IMG/VR virus record: IMGVR_UViG_3300003332_000015
Span: 18,576-82,575 of that record
Reading direction: 5' to 3' (one strand)
Source: a virus
Lineage: Duplodnaviria; Heunggongvirae; Uroviricota; Caudoviricetes
Length of the DNA: 64,000 bases
The notes under the pieces are model-generated. The model searched no databases, was not told the DNA's origin, and saw nothing but the letters and a program-made list of their open reading frames with translations. Every line of letters begins with the position of its first letter. The stretch's first letter is position 1. This document shows positions 1,827 through 21,782 of the stretch, one piece after another. Both the position numbers and the translations under genes were made by a program.

Positions 1827-3545
1827 TTACTGTACTATATATTCAGTAGTTACATCTGTTATTTCTTCTACTCTGAATATTTGATTTCTTGTTTTTAGTT
1901 CAATATTAATTTCATCATTTTTATAATAAGTCTTAACAGTATAATCACTAAATGTACCTGATATACCACTTACTATAACAAGAACTCCTTCGCCAGTTAC
2001 ATAGTTAATTGAAGAACCAGTTAGGTCATATCCTGCTTCAGCTGTAAAGCCTCCAAGACCATCGTCAACTCCAATTTTTACATATCCTAAAGCTAATTCT
2101 TGTATATAAATTGAAATAGATTCTTTTTCAATATCATAAATATCTAAATTTATATCCCCTAAGTAAGTATCACTTAAAGTTGAATAACTTATTAAATCTA
2201 AATATGAAGTATGATATTCAATACCATCAATGGATTTAATATAACCTTTCCATTCTACTTCATACATTGGTTGTTTAAAATCCATATTGTCTAAACTATA
2301 TCTTTCTGTAACTCCATCAATAATAGCTGTTTTAACTATTGATAAAATTTTTGTAGGATCTTTGATAAATGCTTGTACATGAAAAGCTAAGTAAATAAAA
2401 TCTGTATCAATAAAACTTACTATATCTGTAGGAGGTTTATCTTCTTTAATACTTGTTATTACTTCTGTTTTTTGTGTGTTATCTAGTTGTTCCCCTAAAG
2501 GAGTGAAAGCAGATACACGAACGAAATTTTCTTCTGTTGGTATGTATGTCCATAAGTCAACATTATTATCTAAGTTATATTCGTATGCACCCCAAACAGT
2601 TGCTTTTAATATATAAGGACTTTCAGCTAATTTAACTCTATAATCTTTTTTAGCAACCGCTTTATCCCCTGCTTGAAAAGTATCAACACCATTTGTTCTG
2701 ATATCTTCTAAATCTTCTTCTTCTTTTCCACCTTCAATGTTAGAAGTGTTTGTACAATAAATATCTATTTGAGCTGCATCTATATCATATATAGTTGAAT
2801 CAACTGTAGTTACTATATTTATACCTAAAACATTTCCAGTTACACCTAATGTTTCAATATACTTAAAAGCAACAGAATCTCCTGACTGTAATTTAGTACC
2901 AAAAATATCATTACCAAAAGTAATATCTATACCGTCAAAATTTAATTTATTTTTTAAAGTATAAACAGTATCAGTTGAAGCAGCTGCATTTAAGTCATCA
3001 ACTTCAGTCCATAAAGCTCCATTAACCCATACTTCATAATATACGTTTTCTATAATACTATTTGTAATTGAGATCTCTTCGTATATGTCACCATTAGCAA
3101 CATAATTAAAAGTTTTTGGTTCACCTTGAACTACTGGTAAATCTATATAATCATCTGTTATTGTAATGTTCGTAGTTATTGTTGAAGTAAACTTTTTAGT
3201 ACCATCTGAAAATATAGTCCATTTTGGGAAAGGAACTATTTTAACAGGAGGGGCATCAAAAGTAGGAGAAGTACTTACTCTTACATAACCAAGTCCTCCT
3301 AGTTTCCTATGAGCTGAATACTGCATAAATTGTGATTGTGAAACTAAAGAACTTTTTTCAGTTGCTAAGTCCCATCTTGTATTACGTGTTAAGAATTCAT
3401 CATAAGCTGCTAGTTCAGCTATTGCTTCTGAAACTGAATCTAATAATCTACTATTTGTACTGAAGAATAATACATCAGCCCATGAGGCTTTTGCTCTAAG
3501 CCCTGATATTAATCTACCTTTTACTGAATCAAAATCGAATTGCAT
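1827..3545 (-). CDS. Baseplate wedge subunit (T4 gp6 / baseplate J-like)
   Basis: 572 aa with SNIEGGKEEEDLEDIRTN...FQAGDKAVAKKDY, typical of gp6/J; baseplate gene context. Confidence 0.85.
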   Translation of the reverse strand: MQFDFDSVKGRLISGLRAKASWADVLFFSTNSRLLDSVSEAIAELAAYDEFLTRNTRWDLATEKSSLVSQSQFMQYSAHRKLGGLGYVRVSTSPTFDAPPVKIVPFPKWTIFSDGTKKFTSTITTNITITDDYIDLPVVQGEPKTFNYVANGDIYEEISITNSIIENVYYEVWVNGALWTEVDDLNAAASTDTVYTLKNKLNFDGIDITFGNDIFGTKLQSGDSVAFKYIETLGVTGNVLGINIVTTVDSTIYDIDAAQIDIYCTNTSNIEGGKEEEDLEDIRTNGVDTFQAGDKAVAKKDYRVKLAESPYILKATVWGAYEYNLDNNVDLWTYIPTEENFVRVSAFTPLGEQLDNTQKTEVITSIKEDKPPTDIVSFIDTDFIYLAFHVQAFIKDPTKILSIVKTAIIDGVTERYSLDNMDFKQPMYEVEWKGYIKSIDGIEYHTSYLDLISYSTLSDTYLGDINLDIYDIEKESISIYIQELALGYVKIGVDDGLGGFTAEAGYDLTGSSINYVTGEGVLVIVSGISGTFSDYTVKTYYKNDEINIELKTRNQIFRVEEITDVTTEYIVQ

Positions 3546-7113: not shown

Positions 7114-8840
7114 TATAATACCTCTGTTGTTAAGTTGTTCATTATACTATGTGGTGTATATCTTGATACAAAATTCTGTTGTAATACAGTACCACCACCT
7201 GCTATTGTTTCTGGTTTATTTGCAATACTGCTTAGTATGTCTTTTATACTAGTTAATAAATTTTCACTTCTAGAATCTTTAATTGAACTAACATTACCTT
7301 GTGTTGATTTATCAATAAGTCCTATAGGGTTCTTACTAGCAAATATTGTATCATCAGGATGAGTTTCTATTATACTTCCATCAGGTCTTAATATTGCATC
7401 ATTTACAGGACGTGTTAAATAACTCAATGGATTTACAGTAGGAGTACCTAAAGCTGCATTGTACCCTGAATCTGATTTAGCTTTACTTACAAAACTTTCA
7501 TCAATTTCAGGTGTTTCGTATCCTGTTATCCAACCAAACATTGATCCAAATATGTCACCAATTTTATTAAAGAAATCTTTCACAGGTTGTATAAGATCAT
7601 TAACAAAACCAATAGGGTCATCTATAAAGTCAATGAACCCTTGTTTAATATCTTGAAAGATACTTGATACTTTATCTATAATATTTTTAATTAAATTAAT
7701 ACCAAAACCAATAGGATCGTCTATAAAAGATTTTACTCCTTCAATTACACTACTAAATATTTGAGTTACAGTATCACCAATAGAAGTGAATATAGGAGAT
7801 ATCTTAGACCATAAGTTTTTAGCAAAATCAGCAACAGCCCCCATTTCAGATTTAAATTGATCCCATCCTTCTTTAAAACCTTCTGCTAACATTCCTGGTA
7901 ATTCTATAAACCAGTTACCAAGTGTAAAAGCGGCTTTTTTAATTCCACCCCAAAAAACATCTTTAAACCAAATACCTAATTTGTCCATTGCCTTTGCTAT
8001 TTTTTCACCACCGATAAATCCAAGTATACCGCCAATAGCTGCCCCTAAAAGACCACCTACTAAAGTACCTATTCCTGGTGCAACAAGTGTTCCAATACCA
8101 GCACCCATTAGTGCCCATTTACCCATTCCTTTAAAGGCATTCTTCCAACCTTTTCCAGTTCCACCAAGTACTCCACCTATAACAGCAGACAACTTAGATG
8201 TACCCCATTCACCAGCCATACTATATGCTTTGAAACCATCAATAGCCATCCATATCAAACTACCAACGATCATTCCTATTGCTCCTGCTTTCATTAACAT
8301 AGGACCAAGTTTTGCTAGTCCCGCCATCGCTCCTCCACCTAATAACATAGGTAAAAATCCTTTTAACTTATCTAAAAATCCACCTTCTTCTTGTCCTTCT
8401 AAAAGAGTGTCAGCTATGTATACTGCTTCAGGATTAGTTTTTAACATATTAGATCTAGTTGGTTTTCTTTTCTTTTTAATACCAAACATACTACCAAGTG
8501 AAGTAAACATTGTACCCATTTGGTCAAATGGTTTAGTTATAAAACTTGTATCACCTAAAAAAGTATCTTCAACAAAAGATTTAGTTTGAGATCCAAAATC
8601 TTTAACTGATTCAGAAAATTTTTTATTACTCTTAATAGTTTCTTTATCTTCTTTAGTTTTTGGAGTTGGTTTTGTTTTACCTTCCTCTATTTTCTTAAGA
8701 GATGTCTCTTGTTTTTTATTAGATTTTTCTGACTTCTTTAGTGTACCTGTTAGAAATTGAGTCTGTTCAAATATTTCAGTAAGCACATCAACTGCATCTT
8801 TCTCTACTTTGACTGGAGTTAAAATTGGTATATCTGACAC
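7113..8840 (-). CDS. Tape measure protein
   Basis: Gly/Ala-rich hydrophobic helices, amphipathic W/F repeats, DAILRPDG...THPDDTIFASK C-terminus; position in the tail module. Confidence 0.75.
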   Translation of the reverse strand: MSDIPILTPVKVEKDAVDVLTEIFEQTQFLTGTLKKSEKSNKKQETSLKKIEEGKTKPTPKTKEDKETIKSNKKFSESVKDFGSQTKSFVEDTFLGDTSFITKPFDQMGTMFTSLGSMFGIKKKRKPTRSNMLKTNPEAVYIADTLLEGQEEGGFLDKLKGFLPMLLGGGAMAGLAKLGPMLMKAGAIGMIVGSLIWMAIDGFKAYSMAGEWGTSKLSAVIGGVLGGTGKGWKNAFKGMGKWALMGAGIGTLVAPGIGTLVGGLLGAAIGGILGFIGGEKIAKAMDKLGIWFKDVFWGGIKKAAFTLGNWFIELPGMLAEGFKEGWDQFKSEMGAVADFAKNLWSKISPIFTSIGDTVTQIFSSVIEGVKSFIDDPIGFGINLIKNIIDKVSSIFQDIKQGFIDFIDDPIGFVNDLIQPVKDFFNKIGDIFGSMFGWITGYETPEIDESFVSKAKSDSGYNAALGTPTVNPLSYLTRPVNDAILRPDGSIIETHPDDTIFASKNPIGLIDKSTQGNVSSIKDSRSENLLTSIKDILSSIANKPETIAGGGTVLQQNFVSRYTPHSIMNNLTTEVL

Positions 8841-8866
8841 ATTTTTTTCCTTATATTACTATATAT

Positions 8867-8879
8867 ATTATATTAGTAA
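8867..8879 (-). promoter_or_regulatory. Putative late promoter
   Basis: Exact motif upstream of tape measure; overlaps the HNH stop codon. Confidence 0.7.
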
Positions 8880-9506
8880 TTTTTTGTCCTGTAATGTTTT
8901 TTTTACTTTCTCAGATATTTTTCTTTTAGTTTCTTCAGAATGTTTTTTATCTTTCATTCCTTTACTTTTACTAGGGTTCTCTTTATGAGATTTTGACATT
9001 TTTCTTTTAGTTTCAATATTATGAGTATTTCCATAATTAGCATTATTTTTTCCTTTTTGAGTTATAGACATTTTTTTTCTAGTCTCATCACTACGCTTTT
9101 GACCTCTATTAGATTCTGCTCTTTTTCTTCTAGTTTCAACAGATTGCTTTATTTTTATTTTTCTACCTTTATTTGCTTTCCCTATTTTCTTTTTAGTTTC
9201 TTCAGTGTGTTTCATTTCTTTTTTTAACTGTTCATATTGTTTAGATGTTAACTTATTTTTATATTTAGTAAATCCACACATCATATAAAAAGCTTGAGTC
9301 ATTTGTTTTCCGTAAACTTTCCATAACATTAAGTGGGCTATATAATGCTCACGTGCTGTTAAAATAATTAAGTTTTCATCTTCATCAGAACCGCCCAAAC
9401 TTTTGTGTATAATATGATGATTTTCTGTGTAAACATTTTTTGGGATTGTTCTTAATTTTCTTGAAGATATAAAATTGTCGTATCTGATTTTATAAAGGTT
9501 ATTCAT
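8868..9506 (-). CDS. Free-standing HNH homing endonuclease with NUMOD3 repeats
   Basis: ENHHIIHKSLGGSD...LTAREHYIAHLMLWK HNH core; HTEETKKKI / RSDETRKKMS NUMOD3 repeats. Confidence 0.9.
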   Translation of the reverse strand: MNNLYKIRYDNFISSRKLRTIPKNVYTENHHIIHKSLGGSDEDENLIILTAREHYIAHLMLWKVYGKQMTQAFYMMCGFTKYKNKLTSKQYEQLKKEMKHTEETKKKIGKANKGRKIKIKQSVETRRKRAESNRGQKRSDETRKKMSITQKGKNNANYGNTHNIETKRKMSKSHKENPSKSKGMKDKKHSEETKRKISEKVKKTLQDKKLLI

Positions 9507-9552
9507 TAGAAACTCCTATAATTTTTAACTTTTAAGAGTCGGGAAACTCTAC

Positions 9553-9565
9553 ATTATATTAGTAA
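9553..9565 (-). promoter_or_regulatory. Putative late promoter
   Basis: Exact motif between RNA element 1 and the HNH leader. Confidence 0.7.
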
Positions 9566-9575
9566 AAGAAGAATT

Positions 9576-9634
9576 AAAGGTTAGATATAGGGAGTTATTC
9601 TATATCAGCAGGTTCCCGCCTGTTGTCCCTTTTT
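9576..9634 (-). ncRNA. Putative structured cis/trans RNA element, copy 1 (three-way junction with two pairing loops)
   Basis: Minus strand: AAAGG GAC AACAGG[CGGGAA]CCTGCT GATATAG[AATAACTCC]CTATATC TAA CCTTT. The loops are complementary to leader hairpin loop TTCCCG (9540-9545) and to the RBS GGAGTT (9511-9516). Confidence 0.7.
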
Positions 9635-9641
9635 ATTTAAT

Positions 9642-9770
9642 TTATTTTTTATTTTTTTCCTTCATAACTTTTTTTAAATAGTTTAGTCTATTTCTAATAA
9701 TATGACTAGGCATCTTCATATAGTCTTCATAAGTATCAGAAAAACTACTATAACAAAGAGTACTAATCAT
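9642..9770 (-). CDS. Small 42-aa ORF; probable tail-chaperone T-like extension
   Basis: Hand-translated MISTLCYSSFSDTYEDYMKMPSHIIRNRLNYLKKVMKEKNKK. Its frame is open upstream across the end of 9784..10740. Confidence 0.55.
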   Translation of the reverse strand: MISTLCYSSFSDTYEDYMKMPSHIIRNRLNYLKKVMKEKNKK

Positions 9771-9783
9771 TTGATTAAAAATA

Positions 9784-10740
9784 TTAAGGGTCCATGGACG
9801 GTAAGAAATCCATAAATCGAAAAAGGAAACTCCGAGTTATGTCTTCACCTGTTAAAGGTGATTTCACTTTGATTTCATGTTCTATACCAAACTTCACATT
9901 ATCTTTTAAGTAAGTATTATAGTCTTTCCATACTGTTAAAGGTATTGTAGAATACTCTTCAATAGCTTCTTCAGCACTAACATCAACTTCATCAATTTGA
10001 CTTATTAATTGTATCTGTTGTTGCCTAGCAAAAAACTTTAATCTTTCAATTTGATACTTTTTAAACTTTCTCATTTTAGAAGGAGATATCTTATAATCTA
10101 AAGGTTTCCCTTGTTCCATAAGAAATTCATTATGTTTTAATTGTTGTTCTAATTCAGAGTATTCATCTTCCTCTTCAATAAACTTATCTTCAGTTAATTC
10201 TTTTGCTATTAAAGTTTGTCCTATCCTAGGTAAAATAAAACCGTATGTTCTACCATCAGACTCATCAGTAATAGTTATAGGAGTATTTAAACTAGATAAC
10301 ATTTTAGTTTTTATTTGAGAAGTTCTTATTGATACTACTAATTTTTCACCACCAGTAGATAGAGCATCTTGTCTTTTTTTAGATACTGTTTTAAGTTCTT
10401 CTTCTGTTGGCATATAAGGATACTCTAAGTAATCTTGCCAAAAGTTAAAATAAATGTTTAACATTATTTCTTCTATGTCTTGTTCATGTAAAGTACTAGC
10501 ATCAACATCCTCATAAATCATGTTATTTAATACTGTTAGTAATGATTCAAGAATAGTGTCCTCAGTAGACATTGCTAGATCAAGAGCATCTTGTCCTGAA
10601 TAGTTTCTTACATGTATTTTAGAAGGATAACCTAGTTGACCATTAGAACTTAATTTAATAGGTAAATAACTTTTAGGTATCCCTTTACTTTTTTCTTTTT
10701 TAATTACTTTTTTTTCATCTCCAACAAAAATATCACTCAT
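9784..10740 (-). CDS. Baseplate hub assembly / tail assembly chaperone (T4 gp26/gp51-like)
   Basis: PIKLSSNGQLGY...IHVRNYSGQDALDL and LHEQDIEEIMLNI pattern; lies between tube genes and tape measure. Confidence 0.6.
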   Translation of the reverse strand: MSDIFVGDEKKVIKKEKSKGIPKSYLPIKLSSNGQLGYPSKIHVRNYSGQDALDLAMSTEDTILESLLTVLNNMIYEDVDASTLHEQDIEEIMLNIYFNFWQDYLEYPYMPTEEELKTVSKKRQDALSTGGEKLVVSIRTSQIKTKMLSSLNTPITITDESDGRTYGFILPRIGQTLIAKELTEDKFIEEEDEYSELEQQLKHNEFLMEQGKPLDYKISPSKMRKFKKYQIERLKFFARQQQIQLISQIDEVDVSAEEAIEEYSTIPLTVWKDYNTYLKDNVKFGIEHEIKVKSPLTGEDITRSFLFRFMDFLPSMDP

Positions 10741-10761
10741 TTTTATATCCTTTATTTATTT

Positions 10762-11301
10762 TTATACTATAGGTATTGGTACAGCACTACTTCTAATTAT
10801 TTGATCAACTGTAAAATTGCATATTACAGTTTTATTTTCACTTGTATCATATGTTAAATCTATATTTTCAATTCCTGTTATCATCATATTCATAAATCTA
10901 TATGAATATGTACTTTCACCATTAGTAGGAATTAATATATCTGATCTCGTATATTTAAAGAAAGTTACTGTTGCTTGTTTAACATAACTTCCGCCTGTTT
11001 TAAATTTACGAGTCTTTTGATCATAAATATTACCCATCCATTTTTCCATAAATTTCATAACAGTGAAATCAGCTGTTTCATTAAACTCTATAGAAAAGTC
11101 CTCTTCAGGTTCAAATTTCATTAGTACTTTATGACCACTATTTCTAGTTTCTGTTTCAAATTTTAAAAGAGGTATAGTAGTACTTTTAATGAGAAATCTA
11201 ATACTAGGTTCATCATCAAAATAAAATTCCCATAAATTAGGATTCCAATATTCTTTCTGTAATTCAAACAATGTTTCATTAATAGGTTTAAAAAATGCCA
11301 A
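10762..11301 (-). CDS. Tail tube-like protein (gp19/gp54 paralog)
   Basis: NPNLWEFYF...IKSTTIP...FMEKWMGNIY...IENIDLTYD tube fold pattern; TTG start with AGGAGG SD. Confidence 0.6.
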   Translation of the reverse strand: MAFFKPINETLFELQKEYWNPNLWEFYFDDEPSIRFLIKSTTIPLLKFETETRNSGHKVLMKFEPEEDFSIEFNETADFTVMKFMEKWMGNIYDQKTRKFKTGGSYVKQATVTFFKYTRSDILIPTNGESTYSYRFMNMMITGIENIDLTYDTSENKTVICNFTVDQIIRSSAVPIPIV

Positions 11302-11318
11302 AATAAAACCCTCCTATT

Positions 11319-11331
11319 ATTATATTAGTAA
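11319..11331 (-). promoter_or_regulatory. Putative late promoter inside RBS-occluding hairpin
   Basis: Exact motif flanked by AACCCTC/GAGGGTT. Confidence 0.7.
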
Positions 11332-11379
11332 TAATACAGAGGGTTCAAAACTTTTTATATAAACTTGTTTAAATAAACT

Positions 11380-11790
11380 TTATAACATGTTACTTGCTTT
11401 TTCTAAATACTCACATACACCCATTAAAATCTCTTCACGTATAGTATTATCAACTAGTAGATCTTCAACTCCCATATCAACTGCAAAACCTATATCTTGA
11501 GCTAAGTCATATGGAGACATAGGACCATAAAGTGCTAAGTTAGAAATTCCTGTAGATATTGGACTAAGTTTTCTAATATCAAAATTCTCATCTAATATTT
11601 TTATCTTGTCACCTTTCTCAAGAATGGTATTCCCAATAGGAGTGTCTTGTGTAATCTCAATAGTAAGACTATCTTCTTTCTTTTTATCTTTCTTACCAAC
11701 TTTTTTCTTACACGATACACAATACCCAGTCTGTATTAGATACTTACTACCACAGTCAGGACATTTTGCTGTTTTACTTGCTTCTCTCAT
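11380..11790 (-). CDS. Hypothetical protein: CxxC..CxxC zinc ribbon plus shared ILExGDKI module
   Basis: CPDC/CVSC; LTIEITQDTPIGNTILEKGDKIKILDE at 11587-11667. Confidence 0.6.
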   Translation of the reverse strand: MREASKTAKCPDCGSKYLIQTGYCVSCKKKVGKKDKKKEDSLTIEITQDTPIGNTILEKGDKIKILDENFDIRKLSPISTGISNLALYGPMSPYDLAQDIGFAVDMGVEDLLVDNTIREEILMGVCEYLEKASNML

Positions 11791-11801
11791 AATATTTTTC
11801 C

Positions 11802-12323
11802 TTAAATTATGTTATCATCTAATGCTAAGAAACCAAAAGTTACATTAACAATAATTGGATCACCACTACTATAATCAAAACTAATGTCTCCAACTGTCAT
11901 TGGAAAACAACCTTTAAAATTCCAACTACCAAAACCTGGTATAGGAATATTCTCTGGAGTAACTGCCCAAACTGTCATGTTTACTCTGTTGTTTGAAAGT
12001 ACATTATCAGGAGCAATAACTCCTGTATAACTATTTGCTACTTTATTTTTCCAAGCTACTAACCCTTTATATACAAGCCAGTTTCTATCAACTCTTAAAT
12101 CAAAACTAAATTCATTCGGTGCTTCAATCTTACCAGAAGGTTTTGTGATCTTCTGTGTTTTATGATGAACCTCATAAGTACTCGTCCCTGTTGCAGGAAC
12201 AGTAAAGTTTTGAATTCTTAAAAGAGTAGAAGTAATGTCGTCTATAAATGCTATAGGTTCAATTGATACATCAAATAAATTCGATAGTGCATCATCCCCC
12301 ATTTGATAAATTTTATCTACCAT
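11802..12323 (-). CDS. Tail tube protein (gp19-like)
   Basis: RIQNFTVP...FSFDLRVD...WNFKGCFPMTVGDISFDYSSGDPI motif; downstream of the sheath. Confidence 0.8.
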   Translation of the reverse strand: MVDKIYQMGDDALSNLFDVSIEPIAFIDDITSTLLRIQNFTVPATGTSTYEVHHKTQKITKPSGKIEAPNEFSFDLRVDRNWLVYKGLVAWKNKVANSYTGVIAPDNVLSNNRVNMTVWAVTPENIPIPGFGSWNFKGCFPMTVGDISFDYSSGDPIIVNVTFGFLALDDNII

Positions 12324-13264
12324 TAGTATATCTCCTTATTCTGTATATTAATATTAGTAAAAATTTCATCAAAAGGAATATTTTTATTTTGTTTTATTCT
12401 TAAAAAAGTATAATCCTTTAATTCATTACTACTCATAATTTTATTTTGTCGTTCTTGGTCTTTCTTTTTAAGTTGACCTTTTGCTGTAAAATGGTATGAC
12501 TCATCCCATTCCATAATTAATTTTAAATCATTATTAACATAATCTAAAAAATATCTATCTTTAGTACAGTACTCTTTACCTTTATTTCCGTATTGTCCAT
12601 TGGTGTTTAATCTTTCATCAAAGTAATCAAAAAATTCACAAGCGTAATGATTAAAACGTCCACCACCTTTAAGGTTAAGTTTTCGTTCCTTAGCTTTTTT
12701 TATACCCGATATTTCCTCATAAGTTTTACCTTTTTTGGCTTTACTCATTTTAAGTTTTATTTCTTGTGCTTTTTCAGAACCATACTCTTCTTCCATAGAT
12801 ACACCTTTTCTTTTAGTGTTTCTACCAAAAAGAGTTTTGGAAATTTTATTACGAACCTCTAATTTTTTAGCTGAATTATTTTTACCTTTTTGTCTTTCAG
12901 ACTGTTTTCTTTTAAATTCTTCTGTGTGTTTAGGGACTTTTATTAATCCTTGTTCCCTTAAACTAGTTTTATATTCTTCAGTACAAATTCTTGAACAAGT
13001 TTTATAATATCCTATTTTATAACTTTCATATACTACATTACCTTGACCACAAATTAAACATTTTTTATTTGTTTTTATATCATTAAGTATACAATAAATT
13101 CTCTCACCTATTCTTGATTCACTAGATAAAAAATGAGTTTCTTTATAAATTTCTTTTAGTCTTTCTTCAAAATTATTTCGTAAATATTTAGGGAGACCTG
13201 CATTGATACTCCCTGTTCGAGTAAAAGTATGTTTATCTGTTAAAAGAAACTCTTTAATAGTCAC
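12323..13264 (-). CDS. Putative homing endonuclease (N-terminal Zn/helical domain, NUMOD3, C-terminal Vsr/DUF559-like PD-(D/E)xK domain)
   Basis: ERIYCILND...CLICG...CSRIC; HTEEFKRKQS; YFLDYVN..LIMEWDESYH...KDQERQ...FLRIK. Inserted between sheath and tube. Confidence 0.7.
   Translation of the reverse strand: MTIKEFLLTDKHTFTRTGSINAGLPKYLRNNFEERLKEIYKETHFLSSESRIGERIYCILNDIKTNKKCLICGQGNVVYESYKIGYYKTCSRICTEEYKTSLREQGLIKVPKHTEEFKRKQSERQKGKNNSAKKLEVRNKISKTLFGRNTKRKGVSMEEEYGSEKAQEIKLKMSKAKKGKTYEEISGIKKAKERKLNLKGGGRFNHYACEFFDYFDERLNTNGQYGNKGKEYCTKDRYFLDYVNNDLKLIMEWDESYHFTAKGQLKKKDQERQNKIMSSNELKDYTFLRIKQNKNIPFDEIFTNINIQNKEIY
12351..12360 (-). promoter_or_regulatory. Putative late promoter (core TTACTAATAT)
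   Basis: Upstream of tail tube, inside the 3' end of the endonuclease gene. Confidence 0.6.
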
Positions 13265-13267
13265 TTA

Positions 13268-14809
13268 CTATACGCCTATGACTTCACTCAAAATGGTGGT
13301 CTGTCCCACATTTACGAATTCAAGTACTATTCTTTCTGAATAAGGTGTTACTTGTATTCCAAGTGTATAAACAAATTTTCTAGCTGCTCTAGCTGCTCCG
13401 TCATTATTGTTTAAATCACATTGGATAATATAATCTGATAAAAGACCCGATGCTAAAATAGGATCCATTAAAGTTTCACCTTTTGAAACAGCTAGTCTTC
13501 TATGTAATTCGTCATTAAGTTTTACTATTTGATAAGTAAGTACACCTTTTAACATGTTAGAAATAATATAATCAAAAAGTCTTGCATGAGCAATCCAACT
13601 TGTATCTGATAATGAAAGAGGTGATTGTGCTGTTCTTTGTGATGTTATCATAACACCATAACTTGCATACTGTACAATAGGATTTATTCCAGCTTCATCT
13701 AATGATTGTAGAGTTGCCTCACTAGGATCGTATTCCATCTGTACAATACCAGCACCTAATTGTCCACCATGTTTATTTTCATCGATCCATGCTGGAGCAC
13801 CACCATTAAATATATTTGTCATCTGTGCATATTTTACACCAACTCTTCCAATTAAAGAAGTCCAAAAGTATGAGTTGTTATAAGTGTCTTTTACTTTTGC
13901 ATGATTCCAATAAAAAGCTAATCCTTTATTATTTATACTAAAACCATCTTTAGTTGTAATAGAAGATGCCGCATCTGAACCTGCTGGTAAAGCTAAAATA
14001 TAAGAAGCATACTTTTGGTATGTACTTCTTAATGTATCAAACAAAGCTTCTACACCAGCTATTGCTGTAGGATCCATAAATATGTCTGCTTTATATGTAT
14101 TTGACTGTTGAAAAAATGCCCAACCTAATGTTAACTCAGTTATTGTAATTGTTGCACCTCTGGCTCCATCTGAAAAAGCAACTTCAGCAGTGTCGTCAGT
14201 AAAAGATGTTATTGCTGATAGTGGATTAACTACTGCTTGAATATAATCATCACCATCTAATACATCTAATATATATATATTTTTTCCAAATCCATCTTTT
14301 GCTCCTACTACTAAAGACACATCATATGTTTCTATTAATACACTATCTTTATATAACTTTATAGTAAAAACCGAATTAGTATCATTATAAGATACTAATA
14401 CACCTAAGTCATCTACATATGGACTAGCTGCTGCAATAACGAAATGGTCTGTTACTAATGGAAAAGTAAAATCTTCAATTGTTGAAGGATCTTCACCTGC
14501 ACCAAAAACTGCTGATCCAGCATCAGATACTAAAACTCCACCTAATAATGCTGTTGCATCGTAAGGAGCTGATATCCATAAACCTGACTGTTTGTTATAC
14601 TGTATTGCTTCCCATACATCAGGGTAAGCTACAGATGGTTTACCAAATAAATCAATTATTCTTTTTTCTTGACCGGCATCTACGAAGATAGGAGTAGCTC
14701 CCCCTTTCCCGGCTCTTATTGTCATTGCACCAACAGATCCTTCTGTACCAATTACGGTAGAAGACTTGTCTATTTTGTCAACTGTTAATCTCCAACTATT
14801 TGAAGGCAT
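13268..14809 (-). CDS. Tail sheath protein (gp18-like)
   Basis: LDEAGINPIV...QRTAQ..LSDTSWIAHARL...YIIQCDLNNN...IQVTPYSERIVLEF C-terminal sheath motifs. Confidence 0.9.
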   Translation of the reverse strand: MPSNSWRLTVDKIDKSSTVIGTEGSVGAMTIRAGKGGATPIFVDAGQEKRIIDLFGKPSVAYPDVWEAIQYNKQSGLWISAPYDATALLGGVLVSDAGSAVFGAGEDPSTIEDFTFPLVTDHFVIAAASPYVDDLGVLVSYNDTNSVFTIKLYKDSVLIETYDVSLVVGAKDGFGKNIYILDVLDGDDYIQAVVNPLSAITSFTDDTAEVAFSDGARGATITITELTLGWAFFQQSNTYKADIFMDPTAIAGVEALFDTLRSTYQKYASYILALPAGSDAASSITTKDGFSINNKGLAFYWNHAKVKDTYNNSYFWTSLIGRVGVKYAQMTNIFNGGAPAWIDENKHGGQLGAGIVQMEYDPSEATLQSLDEAGINPIVQYASYGVMITSQRTAQSPLSLSDTSWIAHARLFDYIISNMLKGVLTYQIVKLNDELHRRLAVSKGETLMDPILASGLLSDYIIQCDLNNNDGAARAARKFVYTLGIQVTPYSERIVLEFVNVGQTTILSEVIGV

Positions 14810-14848
14810 TGTATATTTCTCCTTTACTAATATTTTTTATATTGTGTT

Positions 14849-14861
14849 ATTATATTAGTAA
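14849..14861 (-). promoter_or_regulatory. Putative late promoter
   Basis: Exact motif upstream of the sheath. Confidence 0.7.
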
Positions 14862-14876
14862 ACAAATTGTTAATTT

Positions 14877-15578
14877 TTAGAAGTCTAACTCAACTTCATC
14901 AGTTAAATGATTAATTACAAATTCTAAAGCTTCATCATAATTATCAGTATCAAAATTATATGCTGAAGCAAAATTAAATACTAATGTTTCTGGTATAGTG
15001 ATATCTGTATTTGCTATTAAATTAAATGTTTCTATCTCTATATCTAAAGAAGAAGAATGTATCTTATTTCTTTCTAACCAATCGTTCTCATTATATTGTG
15101 GTTCAAATGACATTCCTGTATAACTTAAATGAGCTGCATATGAAACATCTTCGACATCAACAGTTACATAAGGTGCTAAAATAGTTTTATTATTTGCATC
15201 CCATGTTACATTTGTAAAAGCATATTTATTATCAAAAGAAGTGTGTGACCAAAAAGATACATCATAACTTAAAACCATTGGAGCAAATCTTATTTTAGTT
15301 TCTAAAGCATCAATATAAACACCAGTACTATAAGCTCCAGGATGCCATCTTGAGGCATGACCTAAGTCTATATCTTTGAGTTTAAAATTTAAAAATGGTA
15401 ATTCTAAATTACCTTTGTTTTGATCACTTCGTTTTCTAAAAGCATACTCATTAGAAGAGTATATAACACGAGTTTGGTCTCCTCCAAAAAACATATTTGC
15501 AAAATGTGTTATTAAAGTAAGATCAACCGCATATATAGTATTTAAAAAACTAGGATCATCATAATATCTTTGTGCCAT
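14877..15578 (-). CDS. Probable tail completion/terminator (gp15-like)
   Basis: Precedes the sheath; LELPFLNF...FAPMVLSYDVSFW pattern. Confidence 0.5.
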   Translation of the reverse strand: MAQRYYDDPSFLNTIYAVDLTLITHFANMFFGGDQTRVIYSSNEYAFRKRSDQNKGNLELPFLNFKLKDIDLGHASRWHPGAYSTGVYIDALETKIRFAPMVLSYDVSFWSHTSFDNKYAFTNVTWDANNKTILAPYVTVDVEDVSYAAHLSYTGMSFEPQYNENDWLERNKIHSSSLDIEIETFNLIANTDITIPETLVFNFASAYNFDTDNYDEALEFVINHLTDEVELDF

Positions 15579-15596
15579 TGTTTACCTTAAAATAAT

Positions 15597-15935
15597 TTAT
15601 ATTCTTACCTTATCAAGAGTATAAATAAAATGAGCTATTAATTCTTCTTTAGCTTCTTTTATCATATCATTTATATTTCTATGACCAAATTCTTTAGCAT
15701 CTGCATCAGTAAAATTTTGTTTTGTCTTATATGAATACTGACCAAAAGCTAACATAATATTCTGTATATGTTCAACAACAGAAACATTGTTATCATCATA
15801 CATTAAATAAATAAATTCTTCTTTAAGTTTTTTTGATTCTGTAAGAATTTTTATTTTGTCCCCAGGTTCAAGAATGTTTTCACCTATTTTAATTTCTTGT
15901 GTTATTTCAATTAAATCTTTATCAACTTTTCTCAT
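15597..15935 (-). CDS. Small late protein with N-terminal ILExGDKI module
   Basis: LIEITQEIKIGENILEPGDKIKILTE; late-promoter motif and AAGGAG upstream. Confidence 0.65.
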   Translation of the reverse strand: MRKVDKDLIEITQEIKIGENILEPGDKIKILTESKKLKEEFIYLMYDDNNVSVVEHIQNIMLAFGQYSYKTKQNFTDADAKEFGHRNINDMIKEAKEELIAHFIYTLDKVRI

Positions 15936-15950
15936 TATAATCTCCTTACT

Positions 15951-15959
15951 ATATTAGTA
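15951..15959 (-). promoter_or_regulatory. Putative late promoter (core TACTAATAT)
   Basis: Upstream of 15597..15935. Confidence 0.6.
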
Positions 15960-16490
15960 TTTAAATATTGTGTATCCTACACTAACAGAAAAAGTAATAT
16001 CTAAATTATAATAGATACCTATATTAAACTTTTCTAATATAATAGTATTTATACCTATTCCTATTGTTGGTAAGGAGTAAATTCCATCAGGATTATTATG
16101 TTTATAAGTTAGCATAGGACTAAGAGATATAATCTCTGTTTTCATAAACTCTTTTAATTCTTTAGATAAGTCTGTAATACGTTTTTCAAGTACTTCTATA
16201 TTTGGTAATAACTTGTCATCAATACGTGTTGTAAGAGCATCTATGGTGTCTTGCTGTGTCAATGTGATGTCATACACTACATCATACTCTTCTTGTAATG
16301 TCTTATTATTGTCTAATGACTCACTTAAATTATCTTCAGCTTCCAAATATAAATTAGTCATTATGATGTAAGCATTTTTAAGATCAAAATAATCATTAGG
16401 TACACTTAATTCATACTCACCAATATTAATAACTTCTTGTGTAAATACAAAAGAAGTTAAAAATATAAATAAAATTAAAAATTTTTTCAT
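15954..16490 (-). CDS. Secreted coiled-coil protein with C-terminal beta-strand anchor (possible non-lipoprotein outer spanin)
   Basis: Signal-peptide-like MKKFLILFIFLTSFVFTQE, heptad coiled coil, terminal amphipathic beta strands ending ...FSVSVGYTIFKY. Confidence 0.45.
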   Translation of the reverse strand: MKKFLILFIFLTSFVFTQEVINIGEYELSVPNDYFDLKNAYIIMTNLYLEAEDNLSESLDNNKTLQEEYDVVYDITLTQQDTIDALTTRIDDKLLPNIEVLEKRITDLSKELKEFMKTEIISLSPMLTYKHNNPDGIYSLPTIGIGINTIILEKFNIGIYYNLDITFSVSVGYTIFKY

Positions 16491-17080
16491 TATTGATTCT
16501 TATAACTGTCGTAAACAGAAAGACCAGTTCTTCTATATACTTCATCAGAAAAATCTTTCCATTGATCTTTGTCTTGAATATCTGTTATAAATTGTGTCCA
16601 ACCCATATCAAGTAAAGCATCCCATGCAACATCGTTATCTAATAAAACAGCTTCAAGTCTTTTAACATTACCAGCAGCTATATCAGTTATAACATAACCA
16701 CTAAATCCTGAATTCCATTTAGCTTTTTCTTTTAGTATTTTAACTTTGTCACCTTTTTCTAAAATAAAACTACCAATTTTTATGTCTTCGGTAATTGTTA
16801 TTAAATCTTCTTTTTTAATTTCTTTTTCAATTCTCATTATCTTTTCCTCCCACGGCATTCTTGGAAATGTATCTTTATAATCGACTACTTCATCCCACTC
16901 ACAATTTCTTTTTAAAAACGATAGAATAAGTCCTTTATTCCTATTTGCTTTTAAATCAATTACTGCTTTTCTTATTACTTTAGTATCATTACAATCAAAA
17001 TTGTATACTCTTCCATTAATATTTAATTTAAGTGAGTAATCTGTATAGACTAAAATATCTACATTAAATGGACTATCCAT
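16490..17080 (-). CDS. Hypothetical protein with internal ILExGDKV module and probable internal start at 16837
   Basis: LITITEDIKIGSFILEKGDKVKILKE; GGAGG (16846-16850) lies 8 nt before ATG 16837. Confidence 0.6.
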   Translation of the reverse strand: MDSPFNVDILVYTDYSLKLNINGRVYNFDCNDTKVIRKAVIDLKANRNKGLILSFLKRNCEWDEVVDYKDTFPRMPWEEKIMRIEKEIKKEDLITITEDIKIGSFILEKGDKVKILKEKAKWNSGFSGYVITDIAAGNVKRLEAVLLDNDVAWDALLDMGWTQFITDIQDKDQWKDFSDEVYRRTGLSVYDSYKNQ

Positions 17081-17426: not shown

Positions 17427-18099
17427 ATTATATTAGTAACAAGATTAACTTTTTTAGGTCTACCAAATGTCCATCCATTATTTAAATAATTTTGTAAATC
17501 AGTTAGTTTAACAATCTTTCCAATACAATCTTTATTTATATATCGTCTCCCTTTATTTACAGCAGGTTTCCTTCTCTTACTTTCTGACATATGTCTTTTA
17601 CTTTCAGAACTCCGCTTTTTACCTTTAAGAGCTATAGATAACCTTTGTCTTGTCATAGTCTTGTCATATCACTAACTATTCTTCCTTTCTGAGATTCTGA
17701 TATCTTATGTTTATGTTCTTCACTCATATGTTTATTATAGTAATGATGATTTTTACCTTTTTTAGCTTCTGATATTTTTTTACGTGTTTCAATAGTACAT
17801 GGTGGTTTATCTTGACGTAACCTAGCGTGCTGTTTAGAGGTTAACTTAGGAGAATATTTTACATTTTTTGACATAAACATAAAAGCATAAGTCATTGACC
17901 CTCCATAAATCTTCCAAAGAATTAGATGAGCAATGAAATGTTCTCTTGCTGTAAGACGAATTATATTTTCAGGTTCATCACTTCCACCTAAAGCTCTAGG
18001 TATGATATGGTGTTTTTCTGTATAAGTATCTTTTGGGATTTTTCTTAATTTTCTTGAATCGATAAATTTGTCGTATCTAATTTTATGAATAGAATTCAT
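17423..18099 (-). pseudogene. HNH-NUMOD3 homing endonuclease split by an 11-bp tandem duplication
   Basis: HNH core in 17653..18099 and NUMOD3/C-terminal tail in 17423..17656; GTCTTGTCATA is duplicated at 17647-17668. Confidence 0.8.
17427..17439 (-). promoter_or_regulatory. Putative late promoter, leaderless
   Basis: Exact motif abutting ATG 17426. Confidence 0.7.
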
Positions 18100-18152
18100 T
18101 GTACTAACCTTTTTAATTTTTAAGTCACTTCAATGACTGTTAATATATTATT

Positions 18153-18210
18153 AAAAGTTAGGGGAGAAGGTTAATCTCCCCAACAGGTTGAAGCCTGATG
18201 TCCCCATTTT
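18153..18210 (-). ncRNA. Putative structured RNA element, copy 2
   Basis: GGGGAC ATCAGG[CTTCAA]CCTGTT GGGGAGA[TTAACCT]TCTCCCC TAAC. The loops are complementary to leader loop TTGAAG (18128-18133) and to the RBS AAGGTTA (18105-18111). Confidence 0.7.
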
Positions 18211-18223
18211 TTACTTTTTTTAA

Positions 18224-18817: not shown

Positions 18818-18821
18818 AATT

Positions 18822-19004
18822 TTATCCTATTAAATTTCTTTGCATCGTATTTATAAATTGACTCATAAATTCTTTATCATTAGGTAATACATCTAAAACT
18901 GCTTGTGCAAATTGTGATCCACCGTTAGGATTCCTCATAAGAAGTTTTACCATATTTTGCATAATAATATCATCTTCTTTTAGACTTTTCTTTATTACTT
19001 TCAT
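18822..19004 (-). CDS. Small hypothetical late protein
   Basis: Coupled ORF; begins MKVIKKSLKE (basic leader plus L-x-E). Confidence 0.5.
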   Translation of the reverse strand: MKVIKKSLKEDDIIMQNMVKLLMRNPNGGSQFAQAVLDVLPNDKEFMSQFINTMQRNLIG

Positions 19005-20806: not shown

Positions 20807-20834
20807 TATTAATTAAACCTTTAAAATTCTTGTT

Positions 20835-20847: not shown

Positions 20848-20854
20848 TCAAACT

Positions 20855-21655
20855 TTACTTTTTCTTCTTTTGTTTTTGCCATTGTTTAAGAGCTGCTTGT
20901 CTTAATTTTTCTCTAGTTTCTTTAGATACAATTTTACCTTTATTTGATTTTGATATTTTAAAACGTGTTTCCTTTGTTATAACTCTTCCTTTACTTATTT
21001 CACTTATTCTTTTCTTTTTCTTATCAGCTACATCTTTACCATATCTTTCTTCATATGAAATACCTTTTTGTGATTTACTTATTTTCTTTTTTGATTTATC
21101 AGAATGATGTTTACCTGTCATACCAGGACTAGGATTATCTTTTTTAGAATCACTTATTTTCTTTTTAGTTTCTTCTTATCGAGGTCTCCCTTTTAAAGAA
21201 CTACTAACTTTTTCTTTCCACTTTTTAGCACCTTCTTTGCCCATTGTCTCGATATGTGTTTTACCTTTTTGTATTTTACTAAGATGATTTTTAACTTCTT
21301 TAGAACGTATTTTTCCTCTATTTGAATCACCAATTTTTTTCTTATGTTCTTCGCTCATTTCTATACTTTCTTTTAATCTTTGGTATTGTTTAGATGTTAA
21401 AGTATTAATATGTCTACCGTCTTGTGATAGTAACCAAAAAGCATATGTCATTTGTTTTCCATAAGCTTTCCACAAAATTAGGTGAGCGATATAGTGTTCT
21501 CTTGCTGTTAAGATTATAAGATTTAAAGGTTCATTAGAGCCACCCAAGGATCTTGGGAGAATATGATGTTCTTCTGTATAAAAATTTTTTGATCTTTTTC
21601 TAATAGGACGTGATTGGATAAATTTGTCGTAGCGGATTTTATGAATATTCTTTAT
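20855..21655 (-). pseudogene. Decayed HNH-NUMOD3 endonuclease
   Basis: One reading frame IKNIHKIRYDKFIQSR...EEHHILPRSLGGSN...AREHYIAH. ATA (21655) stands in place of ATG after AGGAG, and there is an in-frame TAA at 21176-21178 inside RPR*EETKKKIS. Confidence 0.85.
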
Positions 21656-21698
21656 GTGTGACTCCTGTAATTTTTAATGGTACTCTAATACCTTTTAC

Positions 21699-21711
21699 AT
21701 TATATTAGTAA
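21699..21711 (-). promoter_or_regulatory. Putative late promoter
   Basis: Exact motif between RNA element 3 and the HNH leader. Confidence 0.7.
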
Positions 21712-21721
21712 GAAAAAATAA

Positions 21722-21782
21722 AAAGAGTTAGGAGGAATGGAGTCACCAATTCCTCCGAACAAGTTAGAGCTTGTTTCTCTTT
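21722..21782 (-). ncRNA. Putative structured RNA element, copy 3
   Basis: AAAGAG A AACAAG[CTCTAA]CTTGTT C GGAGGAAT[TGGTGACTCC]ATTCCTCC TAA CTCTTT. The loops are complementary to leader loop TTAGAG (21683-21688) and to the RBS GGAGTCAC (21658-21665). Confidence 0.7.

What the first reader, a model, noticed from the sequence alone, without database searches (positions are those of the whole stretch)
9506..9634. Two-loop RNA element matched to its own HNH nuclease leader (copy 1; three copies with full covariation)
Seen in sequence: three HNH-NUMOD3 genes (starts 9506, 18099, 21655) share one upstream layout on the coding strand: [outer stem - hairpin A with 6-nt loop - hairpin B - TAAC] - late promoter - [small hairpin C with 6-nt loop] - TTAAAAATTA - RBS - start. 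The loop sequences differ in every copy, yet the complementarity holds. Loop A vs loop C: CGGGAA/TTCCCG, CTTCAA/TTGAAG, CTCTAA/TTAGAG. Loop B vs the RBS: AACTCC/GGAGTT (extends to AACTCC(C)TATA/TATAGGAGTT), TAACCTT/AAGGTTA, GTGACTCC/GGAGTCAC. Stems also covary (CAGG/CCTG vs CAAG/CTTG; three different B stems). Established: T4 I-TevI, e, soc and gene 49 use a simple hairpin on read-through transcripts to hide the RBS, and a late promoter frees it. Inference: this is a more elaborate double kissing-loop/pseudoknot version (order A-B-A'-B'), with copy-specific codes that would make each RNA-nuclease pair orthogonal. It could act in cis on read-through mRNA, or as a processed ~60-nt antitoxin-like sRNA in trans. 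A protein-bound guide role against the matching DNA is a more speculative option. I do not recognise this architecture as described.
Basis: partly seen in the sequence, partly recalled or inferred. Interest (0 to 1): 0.9.

Follow-up and report, generated by a model that had tools for sequence, protein, structure and literature searches.

The report
Two-contact RNA lock on homing endonucleases
In front of selfish DNA-cutting enzyme genes of this vent phage, and of many other uncultured T4-like phages, sits a small three-armed RNA whose two loops match a downstream hairpin loop and the gene's own ribosome landing site, most likely keeping the enzyme untranslated on long read-through transcripts.

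Summary
The genome has four copies (three in the window). I found 38 or more copies in all, on about 30 phage contigs.

Architecture on the coding (minus) strand:
- An outer stem P1 closes hairpins A and B into a three-way junction (junction strands GA and (C)UAA).
- A phage late promoter follows (TAATATAAT here, canonical T4 TATAAATA elsewhere).
- Then come hairpin C, an A-rich linker, the SD and the start codon.

Evidence for the two contacts:
- **Loop A / loop C:** the 6-nt loops are perfectly Watson-Crick complementary in every copy. There are 22 or more different codes, and 204 of 204 cells pair.
- **Blind test:** a search pattern holding no information on loop C recovered 28 matches, each with the exact complement downstream.
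- **Loop B / start region:** loop B pairs with the SD or start codon (-13 to +6).

An empty site in a relative shows that the RNA and the nuclease gene insert as one cassette. The same leader precedes HNH, GIY-YIG and Vsr-like nuclease genes.

Best reading (about 0.6): a cis-acting translational lock on read-through RNA, released on transcripts from the internal late promoter. This is the T4 I-TevI/mobE logic in a new, bipartite tertiary form. A c4-like trans RNA remains possible.

There was no Rfam match, and two full-text searches found no paper describing it. Other agents of this scan have already noted the same kind of leader on other DNA.

The parts
9504..9632 (-). Copy 1 leader, from the P1 5' strand to the ATG. 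P1 9632-9628 / 9580-9576. J1 GA 9627-9626. Hairpin A 9625-9606 (loop CGGGAA 9618-9613). Hairpin B 9605-9585 (loop AATAACTCC 9599-9591). J3 CUAA 9584-9581.
   Evidence: Read. CM R1 gives 108.6 bits.
9553..9564 (-). Late-promoter motif TACTAATATAAT of copy 1, between the junction and hairpin C.
   Evidence: The motif ACTAATATAAT occurs 23 times in the genome, 17 of them on the gene strand before structural genes. The equivalent position holds the canonical T4 late TATAAATA in L242 and most IMG/VR copies.
9535..9550 (-). Copy 1 hairpin C (AGAGT / ACTCT). Its loop TTCCCG (9545-9540) is the exact complement of loop A.
9511..9516 (-). Copy 1 Shine-Dalgarno region GGAGTT, complementary to AACTCC in loop B. 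The A-rich linker is 9534-9517.
8868..9506 (-). HNH-NUMOD3 homing endonuclease gene 1 (212 aa). Its last codons LLI* are the late promoter of the downstream tape-measure gene.
   Evidence: Pfam NUMOD3 6.6e-20 and HNH. Promoter overlap seen. Empty site in relative L141.
18097..18210 (-). Copy 2 leader. Hairpin A 18200-18181 (loop CTTCAA 18193-18188). Hairpin B 18180-18162 (loop TTAACCT 18174-18168). UAAC 18160-18157. Degenerate promoter about 18150-18141. Hairpin C 18138-18123 (loop TTGAAG 18133-18128). SD AGGTTA 18110-18105.
   Evidence: R1 gives 88.4 bits.
17653..18099 (-). HNH-NUMOD3 homing endonuclease gene 2 (148 aa).
21653..21782 (-). Copy 3 leader. P1 21782-21777 / 21727-21722. Hairpin A 21775-21758 (loop CTCTAA 21769-21764). 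Hairpin B 21756-21731 (loop TGGTGACTCC 21748-21739). Promoter 21710-21699. Hairpin C 21692-21679 (loop TTAGAG 21688-21683). SD GGAGTCAC 21665-21658.
   Evidence: R1 gives 88.3 bits.
20855..21655 (-). HNH-NUMOD3 gene 3, decayed: ATA in place of the start codon and one in-frame TAA.

Best explanation
The element is the regulatory front end of a mobile homing-endonuclease cassette.

- **On read-through RNA (lock closed).** RNA that reads in from upstream genes folds into a compact three-way junction (P1, hairpin A, hairpin B). The 6-nt loop of A forms a kissing complex with the 6-nt loop of the downstream hairpin C. This holds the junction against the leader, so that loop B can pair with the Shine-Dalgarno or start-codon region 12-19 nt beyond C. 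Together the two short helices block 30S binding, so the nuclease is not translated from the abundant polycistronic late transcripts.
- **On RNA from the cassette's own promoter (lock absent).** The late promoter lies between the junction and hairpin C. RNA started there lacks A and B, begins at or inside hairpin C and has a free ribosome-binding site. Nuclease output is therefore set by that promoter alone, wherever the cassette lands.

Shown: the structure, both complementarities with covariation, the promoter position and the cassette boundaries. Inferred: repression of translation, action in cis and the transcription start site.
For: 1. **Structure.** P1, A, B and C all covary, and 19 of 23 pairs change on both sides. 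The MFE fold reproduces the junction plus C in most copies.
2. **Kissing helix.** 6 of 6 positions covary. 66 of 66 and 204 of 204 cells are Watson-Crick. The complementarity stops exactly at the loop borders.
3. **Blind test.** A pattern describing only GGACA, the frame of stem A and CTAAC found 35 matches in IMG/VR. In 28 of them the exact reverse complement of loop A lies 16-43 nt downstream, in a hairpin loop (chance is about 0.03 per match). The 7 without it are unrelated sequence.
4. **Loop B target.** It lies at -13 to +6 of the start codon in 28 copies and follows unusual SDs: AGGTTA, GGATA, GAGGC, AGAGGTA, and start regions GAATCAT and ATGATTA. The cognate B:SD duplex energy (-5.8 to -14.2 kcal/mol) equals or beats anti-SD:SD (-3.4 to -8.2) in the 10 copies computed.
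5. **Promoter position.** The genome's recurrent late motif, or canonical TATAAATA, always lies between CTAAC and hairpin C and often overlaps the P1 3' strand.
6. **Precedent in the same phage.** The simple version of the device (a stem around the late promoter with the SD in the 3' arm) occurs at three genes, one of them a sixth HNH paralogue.
7. **Known paradigm.** It is described for I-TevI, I-TevII, I-TevIII, segB and Aeh1 mobE, and for T4 soc, e, 39, 25 and 26 (PMC2988022).
8. **Cassette.** Relative L141 has the empty site, so the junction is part of the insert.
9. **Against trans or orthogonal use.** Identical codes occur twice in one genome. In the TATAAATA copies no U-tract separates the junction from the promoter.
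Against: - There are no expression, probing or reporter data. The host is uncultured.
- The A-B-A'-B' order is a pseudoknot-type tertiary fold that no tool here can model.
- All neighbouring genes are late genes on the same strand. The early-versus-late timing logic of T4 therefore does not transfer directly. The benefit would have to be dose control or insulation.
- In 6 of the 11 HNH-clade copies an upstream start codon opens a frame that runs through the whole leader into the nuclease ORF. If that frame is used, ribosomes would melt the lock.
- In the AT-rich copies P1 is followed by a U-rich tract. This could terminate transcription and yield a free 3'-end RNA.
- Copy 3 keeps a perfect lock on a decayed gene.
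Confidence: 0.6

Rival explanations
1. c4-like trans regulator. The three-way junction is released (by termination at the U-rich tract after P1, or by processing) as a roughly 60-75-nt RNA. It binds the 5' leader of the promoter-started nuclease mRNA at loop C and the SD. It would thus act like the c4 antisense RNA of phages P1/P7, which is co-transcribed with its target.
For: - The junction is a self-contained fold closed by P1.
- Two exposed loops match two target sites, one of them the RBS.
- In the AT-rich and HNH-clade copies P1 is followed by 6-9 T in 10-12 nt.
- c5 and L245 have a promoter-like motif just upstream of P1.
- Within this genome the four loop A codes share at most 4 of 6 pairs with non-cognate loop C.
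- c4 precedent: Citron and Schuster 1990, as cited in PMC8198154. Details of its two loops are from my own knowledge.
Against: - Most IMG/VR copies have no U-tract. The P1 3' strand runs directly into, or overlaps, TATAAATA.
- Two cassettes with the same code coexist in L362 and in L357, so there is no sign of selection for orthogonality.
- No match to Rfam C4, RF01695.
- No processing signal is known.
Confidence: 0.17
2. A regulated switch or protein platform. The invariant junction strands (GA, CUAA) and the invariant A-rich linker would bind a phage or host factor (a RegA-like translational repressor, the nuclease itself, an RNase), or sense upstream translation. Such a signal would open or close the lock, or direct cleavage that separates the nuclease mRNA from the upstream message.
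For: - GA, CUAA and YUAAAA-N-YUAAAA are nearly invariant in 38 copies. No covarying partner was found. A TAAC:GTTA pairing is contradicted, because GTTA changes to ACTA, CCTA or ATTA while TAAC stays.
- The P1 5' strand begins 0-10 nt after, or overlaps, the upstream stop codon. Terminating ribosomes would therefore melt P1.
- RNase E processing and autorepression are known layers of control for T4 endonuclease genes (PMC2988022).
Against: - Nothing points to a particular ligand or protein.
- The downstream nucleases belong to unrelated folds, so autoregulation by a common protein domain is unlikely (NUMOD3 is present in only some).
- The conserved junction may simply fix the geometry of the two arms.
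Confidence: 0.12
3. The leader is coding, or the complementarity acts at the DNA level. One version is an N-terminal extension of the nuclease. The other is an inverted repeat used in DNA, such as an operator or homing-site mimic.
For: - 6 of the 11 HNH-clade leaders are open in frame with the nuclease ORF, with upstream ATG/GTG and, in L241 and L147a, a good SD.
- No G-U pair occurs in 204 kissing cells.
- I-TevI binds an operator overlapping its late promoter (PMC2988022).
Against: - The open frames are three different frames relative to the RNA, so there is no conserved peptide. Five copies have stops 3-10 codons upstream of the start codon.
- The complementary 6-mers sit exactly in the loops of two hairpins whose stems covary independently. 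That is expected for RNA, not for a protein-bound DNA repeat 70-90 bp apart.
Confidence: 0.04

Closest known systems
RBS-sequestering hairpins with an internal late promoter in T4-family phages. They control I-TevI, I-TevII, I-TevIII, segB and Aeh1 mobE, and the late genes soc, e, 39, 25 and 26 (review PMC2988022).
   Same: - The target genes are homing endonucleases of T4-like phages.
- The inhibitory sequence lies upstream of a late promoter, and the SD lies downstream.
- Only read-through RNA can form the block.
- The phage studied here also uses the simple form at three genes.
   Different: - The known cases are one contiguous stem that contains the SD.
- Here the inhibitor is a separately folded three-way junction. 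It touches the leader at two separate sites: a 6-bp loop-loop kiss and a 5-9-bp loop-to-SD/start helix. This gives a crossing (pseudoknot-type) topology.
- The whole device travels with the cassette across unrelated nuclease families.
c4 antisense RNA of phages P1 and P7 (Rfam C4, RF01695; Citron and Schuster 1990, cited in PMC8198154).
   Same: - A small folded RNA is encoded upstream of its target, on the same strand and in the same transcription unit.
- Two loop sequences are complementary to two downstream sites that include a ribosome-binding site.
- The loop and target letters differ between relatives but stay matched.

The last two points are from my own knowledge of c4.
   Different: - c4 is processed and acts in trans in a lysogeny immunity circuit (icd-ant).
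- There is no Rfam C4 match here.
- No promoter lies between c4 and its target, unlike this late promoter.
- The targets here are lytic-phage nuclease genes.
Fully complementary 6-7-nt loop-loop kissing complexes (HIV TAR-TAR*, ColE1 RNA I-RNA II) and two-site kissing regulators such as OxyS-fhlA. All are from my own knowledge.
   Same: - All six loop nucleotides of two hairpins are Watson-Crick complementary.
- A second contact covers the RBS.
   Different: - Those complexes form between two molecules, or are artificial.
- Here both partners are normally on one RNA and are conserved as a cis module of a mobile gene.
Fold-back inhibition of IS10/IS50 transposase mRNAs ('protection from outside activation'; from my own knowledge).
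   Same: A mobile element blocks translation of its own enzyme on transcripts that enter from outside. Its own promoter gives a translatable RNA.
   Different: In IS10/IS50 the block is simple secondary structure in a transposon. There is no junction and no kissing loop.
Rfam int-alpA motif (RF02996), named by another agent of this scan as an anti-SD leader design.
   Same: The design is said to share a hairpin loop matching the SD (not verified by me).
   Different: No match to RF02996 at E<=1 in the window or in six external copies.

Membership tests
T4-type translational control of homing endonuclease / late genes (inhibitory RNA upstream of a late promoter) | The controlled gene is a homing endonuclease or late gene of a T4-like phage. 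| tested here: met
   The genes are HNH + NUMOD3 and resemble Mob-type HEs of T4-like phages. Canonical TATAAATA is present in relatives.
T4-type translational control of homing endonuclease / late genes (inhibitory RNA upstream of a late promoter) | A late promoter lies between the inhibitory sequence and the SD, so promoter-started RNA lacks the inhibitor. | tested here: met
   The motif lies between CTAAC and hairpin C in all copies inspected. The transcription start itself is inferred, not mapped.
T4-type translational control of homing endonuclease / late genes (inhibitory RNA upstream of a late promoter) | The inhibitory sequence base-pairs with the SD/start region. | tested here: met
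   Loop B is complementary to -13..+6, with covariation.
T4-type translational control of homing endonuclease / late genes (inhibitory RNA upstream of a late promoter) | The block is a single contiguous hairpin stem that contains the SD. | tested here: not met
   The pairing is loop-to-linear plus a separate loop-loop kiss. The complementarity ends at the loop borders.
T4-type translational control of homing endonuclease / late genes (inhibitory RNA upstream of a late promoter) | Translation is repressed on long RNA and allowed on late RNA. | not testable with these tools
   No RNA data exist for this uncultured phage.
c4 antisense RNA (Rfam RF01695) | Match to the family covariance model. | tested here: not met
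   cmscan of all 4227 Rfam families at E<=1 gave no hit in window 8000-23000 or in L005, L145, L147, L241, L242 and L245.
c4 antisense RNA (Rfam RF01695) | Two loops complementary to two downstream sites, including an RBS, on the same strand. | tested here: met
c4 antisense RNA (Rfam RF01695) | Released as a small RNA that acts in trans. | not testable with these tools
   No RNA runs are listed.
Rfam int-alpA (RF02996) | Match to the family covariance model. | tested here: not met
Self-cleaving ribozymes or group I intron fragments (three-way junction or pseudoknot RNAs common near phage nuclease genes) | Match to the Rfam hammerhead, twister, pistol, hatchet or Intron_gpI models. | tested here: not met
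   No Rfam hit at E<=1. The junction strands GA/CUAA do not fit the hammerhead core (my own knowledge).

The most novel reading that the evidence does not exclude
The lock may be an addressable RNA code and not just a passive cis block. In this reading the three-way junction is released as a c4-like RNA. Its 6-nt 'address' (loop A) and anti-SD loop would let one cassette, or one phage, silence matching nuclease cassettes in trans. That could include cassettes of a co-infecting relative, making this a natural, portable and reprogrammable two-input riboregulator used in conflicts between mobile nucleases. A related option is that upstream translation, which ends on P1, or translation through the leader opens the lock. 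That would couple nuclease dose to expression of the host gene.
Probability: 0.12. Interest if true: 0.85.

Novelty: new variant of a known kind. Interest (0 to 1): 0.68.

Why it matters
- **A new RNA family.** It is a well-defined, abundant and so far uncatalogued structured RNA: 38 or more copies found here, no Rfam model, and no paper found in two full-text searches. Its tertiary contacts are proven unusually cleanly by covariation.
- **A portable regulatory module.** It shows that selfish nuclease genes of at least three unrelated folds share one portable RNA front end. It extends the classic T4 hairpin/late-promoter trick to a bipartite kissing design.
- **Practical annotation use.** The motif marks homing-endonuclease cassette borders, late promoters and true start codons in uncultured T4-like phages. 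Gene callers currently run ORFs through the leader.
- **A template for synthetic biology.** Its loop codes are a natural template for orthogonal two-contact riboregulators.
- **A simple test.** The hypothesis can be tested with reporter fusions and compensatory loop swaps.

Tried and rejected
- **Near and distant BLAST** of the locus and of two external leaders against GenBank phages: no match.
- **Promoter-based pattern scans** gave only chance hits. These were CTAAC..CTAATATAAT..TTAAAA in IMG/VR, and CTAATATAA..TTAAAAGTTAAAA in IMG/VR and JGI metagenomes.
- **CM R1 on 165 loci of other Mob-like HNH genes:** no copies. The element is confined to a subclade of HNH genes plus other nuclease families.
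- **Closest HNH homologues without a leader:** P0006, P0007, P0008 and P0016 abut their upstream genes. For P0042 no DNA was available.
- **The search for related loci with P0011:** nothing.
- **TAAC pairing with GTTA of the linker:** rejected, because there is no covariation.
- **Hairpin B as an ordinary intrinsic terminator:** only copy 2 passes the scan. CTAAC interrupts the stem and the T-run.
- **A conserved leader peptide:** rejected, because the open frames are three different frames.
- **RNA evidence:** no RNA holder is listed for the locus. Laying contigs of two hydrothermal-vent DNA runs added nothing on the leader. It showed only that L145/L146 comes from the same sample as the window.
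- **Two papers not held:** Gibb and Edgell 2007 and 2009.
Full report
**1. What is there**

All genes of this part of the window lie on the minus strand. The window is bases 18576-82575 of a 146.6-kb, 29% GC virus record. The only listed holders are hydrothermal-vent metagenomes. The record has myovirus tail genes and a family-B-like DNA polymerase.

Three HNH-NUMOD3 genes sit at 8868-9506, 17653-18099 and 20855-21655. They resemble the Mob-type free-standing homing endonucleases of T4-like phages at about 37% identity. The third is decayed, with ATA in place of ATG and an in-frame TAA.

**2. Anatomy, refined**

Read 5' to 3' on the coding strand, each leader has these parts in order:
- The P1 5' strand.
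- GA.
- Hairpin A: a 7-bp stem with a central mismatch and a 6-nt loop.
- 0-1 nt.
- Hairpin B: a 5-8-bp stem and a 7-18-nt loop.
- (C)UAA.
- The P1 3' strand.
- The late promoter.
- Hairpin C: a 4-5-bp stem in the window's copies (up to 9 bp elsewhere) and a 6-nt loop.
- An A-rich linker of the form YUAAAA-N-YUAAAA.
- The SD, then the start codon.

The 'GGACA' and 'CTAAC' boxes are therefore the closing G-C pair of P1, the two junction strands and the first pair of stem A. The minimum-free-energy fold reproduces the three-way junction plus hairpin C in most copies.

The promoter motif TTACTAATATAAT(A) is a genuine recurrent signal of this phage. ACTAATATAAT occurs 23 times, 17 of them on the gene strand, in front of sheath, tape-measure and other structural genes.

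**3. More copies**

A covariance model (R1) finds exactly four copies in the genome. The fourth precedes a fifth HNH paralogue outside the window, with loops TTGCCA/TGGCAA. Two other HNH paralogues lack the element:
- One has the promoter abutting its ATG.
- The other has the classic T4 device: a 9-bp stem around the promoter with the SD in the 3' arm.

The nearest protein homologues led to seven external copies on ENA and Logan contigs: L145, L147 (two), L241, L242, L245 and L246. Their loop A / loop C pairs are:
- CTGTAA/TTACAG
- CTGTTA/TAACAG
- TTGCCA/TGGCAA
- TGCCAG/CTGGCA
- TTGGTG/CACCAA

In L242 the promoter between the two halves is the canonical T4 late promoter TATAAATA.

**4. A blind test**

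I searched IMG/VR with a pattern that encodes only GGACA, the frame of stem A and CTAAC. It carries nothing about loop C or the start region.
- Of 35 matches, 28 have the exact reverse complement of their own loop A 16-43 nt downstream, inside a hairpin loop.
- The seven without it are plainly unrelated sequence.
- Chance for a given 6-mer in such a window is about 3%.

R1, built without these sequences, scores them at E 1e-7 to 1e-12 and finds four more. The running total is 38 copies with 22 or more distinct loop codes.

**5. Statistics**

| Test | Result |
|---|---|
| 11 copies, cells paired | 99.2%, against 72.4% shuffled and at most 51.5% slid |
| 11 copies, pairs changed on both sides | 19 of 23 |
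| 38 copies, cells paired | 99.1% |
| 38 copies, kissing helix | 100% Watson-Crick (204 cells), 2-4 pair types at each of its six positions, no G-U |
| Non-cognate loop A / loop C | 0-5 of 6 pairs shared |
| Loop B vs start region, 10 copies | summed runs 63 vs 34.7+-2.7, 0 of 5000 shuffles |
| Loop B vs start region, 28 copies | summed runs 156 vs 105.5+-4.4, 0 of 3000 shuffles |

The complementarity between loop A and loop C ends exactly at the loop borders.

The loop B target lies between -13 and +6 of the start codon. It tracks odd SDs (AGGTTA, GGATA, GAGGC, AGAGGTA) or the start codon itself (GAATCAT, ATGATTA). The cognate B:SD duplex is as stable as, or more stable than, anti-SD:SD in the ten copies computed.

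**6. The RNA belongs to the mobile cassette**

Relative L141 (64% identical tail sheath) has the two flanking genes of copy 1 separated by only 27 nt. There is no hairpin and no nuclease gene there. The whole stretch from P1 to the nuclease stop is therefore one insertion.

The last codons of nuclease 1 (LLI*) are themselves the late promoter of the downstream tape-measure gene. This arrangement is known from T4 (PMC2988022).

The same leader precedes other nuclease families:
- GIY-YIG/NUMOD3 genes.
- DUF559/MTES_1575 (Vsr-like) genes with zinc fingers.
- A DUF723 gene.

A role that depends on the HNH protein is therefore unlikely. Five large phage contigs carry 1-3 copies each.

**7. Mechanism**

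The best-supported reading is a cis-acting translational lock on read-through RNA.
- The junction is encoded wholly upstream of the late promoter, so only RNA entering from upstream carries it.
- On such RNA, loop A can dock on loop C. This is a fully paired 6-nt kiss of the TAR-TAR* type (my own knowledge).
- Loop B can then cover the SD or start codon.
- RNA started at the internal promoter lacks A and B. With the T4 late start about 6 nt after TATAAATA (my own knowledge), the RNA would begin at or within the 5' arm of hairpin C. The RBS is then free.

This is the logic established for I-TevI, I-TevII, I-TevIII, segB and Aeh1 mobE (PMC2988022). The same phage uses the simple form at three genes.

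Because J2 is 0-1 nt, A and B may stack into one rod with a contact at each end. The conserved 12-19-nt A-rich linker would run along the rod. This geometry is my inference and is untested.

**8. Rivals and open points**

A c4-like trans RNA is the main rival. Points for it:
- The junction is self-contained.
- In the AT-rich copies P1 is followed by a U-rich tract.
- Two copies have a promoter-like motif before P1.

Points against it:
- Most copies run from P1 straight into TATAAATA without a U-tract.
- Two cassettes with the same code coexist in L362 and in L357.
- There is no Rfam C4 match.

The invariant junction strands and linker have no covarying partner. A TAAC:GTTA pairing is contradicted. 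They may make tertiary contacts or bind a factor.

Six of the 11 HNH-clade leaders are open in frame with the nuclease ORF, in three different frames. This rules out a conserved peptide but is not explained.

The early-versus-late logic of T4 does not transfer directly, because the neighbours are themselves late genes. Dose control or insulation from the very strong structural-gene transcripts is the likely benefit (inference).

**9. Novelty**

No Rfam family matches at E<=1. Two full-text searches returned no paper describing such a leader, and one of them returned no paper at all. Other agents of this scan have already reported the same kind of leader on other genomes:
- e1-5319496: 'two-contact RNA lock', 41 or more copies.
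- e1-5433528: a three-way junction with linker GACAA.
- Also e1-1835446, e1-5319480 and e1-5385914.

I could not align their sequences, but the descriptions fit. This window therefore adds a new, AT-rich, HNH-linked branch with the promoter placed inside the element. It also adds a blind covariation test and an empty-site comparison.

I class it as a new variant of a known kind of control. It is structurally new, its function is inferred, and it is of clear interest to RNA and phage biologists.

Noticed in passing
window 20855-21655 (-): The third HNH-NUMOD3 gene is decayed. It has ATA at the start-codon position and one in-frame TAA near residue 160. Its leader is nevertheless intact, with the longest loop B:SD match (8 nt).
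   Followed up: partly
window about 11329 and about 40849 (-); G000:C1 about 5881 (-), seen in L006: The classic T4-type device occurs at three genes: a 5-9-bp stem flanking the late promoter, with the SD in the 3' arm. One of these genes is a sixth HNH paralogue (duplex -14.5 to -19.6 kcal/mol, z -2.8 to -3.7). Relative L144:5701 has one too.
   Followed up: partly
window 8866-8878 (-): The last codons and stop of nuclease 1 (TTA CTA ATA TAA) are the late-promoter motif of the downstream tape-measure gene. The relative with the empty site (L141:14815-14860) has no promoter there.
   Followed up: partly
whole genome, e.g. window 14857, 17435, 20843, 23299, 29110, 31859, 38952: The late-promoter-like motif TTACTAATATAAT(A) recurs before structural and other genes. 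ACTAATATAAT occurs 23 times, 17 of them on the gene strand.
   Followed up: partly
G000:C1 93-146 kb, minus-strand reading (outside the window), e.g. 103147, 120617, 130941: A second recurrent motif is CATTAATATAATAATA-N3-TTTTTAA-N-TTTTTTAAAT. It is probably the reverse complement of early-type promoters placed directly before plus-strand genes.
   Followed up: no
L012-L087 subset (e.g. L013:1418-1500, L017, L054, L086); alignment A4: About 18 distant Mob-like HNH genes of IMG/VR T4-like phages carry a different conserved leader. After TATAAATA comes a covarying hairpin (GTAGTT-CGCGGAA-N6-TTCCC-AACTAC), then CTCTAAC, then the SD. 8 of 11 pairs show double changes. There was no convincing Rfam match (one chance-level SCARNA7 hit, 20 bits against a 65-bit threshold, E 0.42). 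The shared CTCTAAC box hints at kinship with the element studied here.
   Followed up: partly
L005:1300-1455, L147:1501-1640 and 2985-3112, L241:32-184, L242:40-192, L246:55-207: Gene callers extend the nuclease ORF through the whole RNA leader. The leader is stop-free in frame in 6 of 11 copies, in three different frames, and some copies have a good upstream SD plus start codon.
   Followed up: partly
L362 (G001:C1:21965-25079): Three endonuclease cassettes with this leader lie in tandem within 3.1 kb. The two outer ones share the loop code CTCTAA and the middle one has TTCCTG. The downstream genes include a GIY-YIG gene (Pfam) and one with an HNH-like N-terminus (MNYEKIYY...; not tested against Pfam).
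   Followed up: partly
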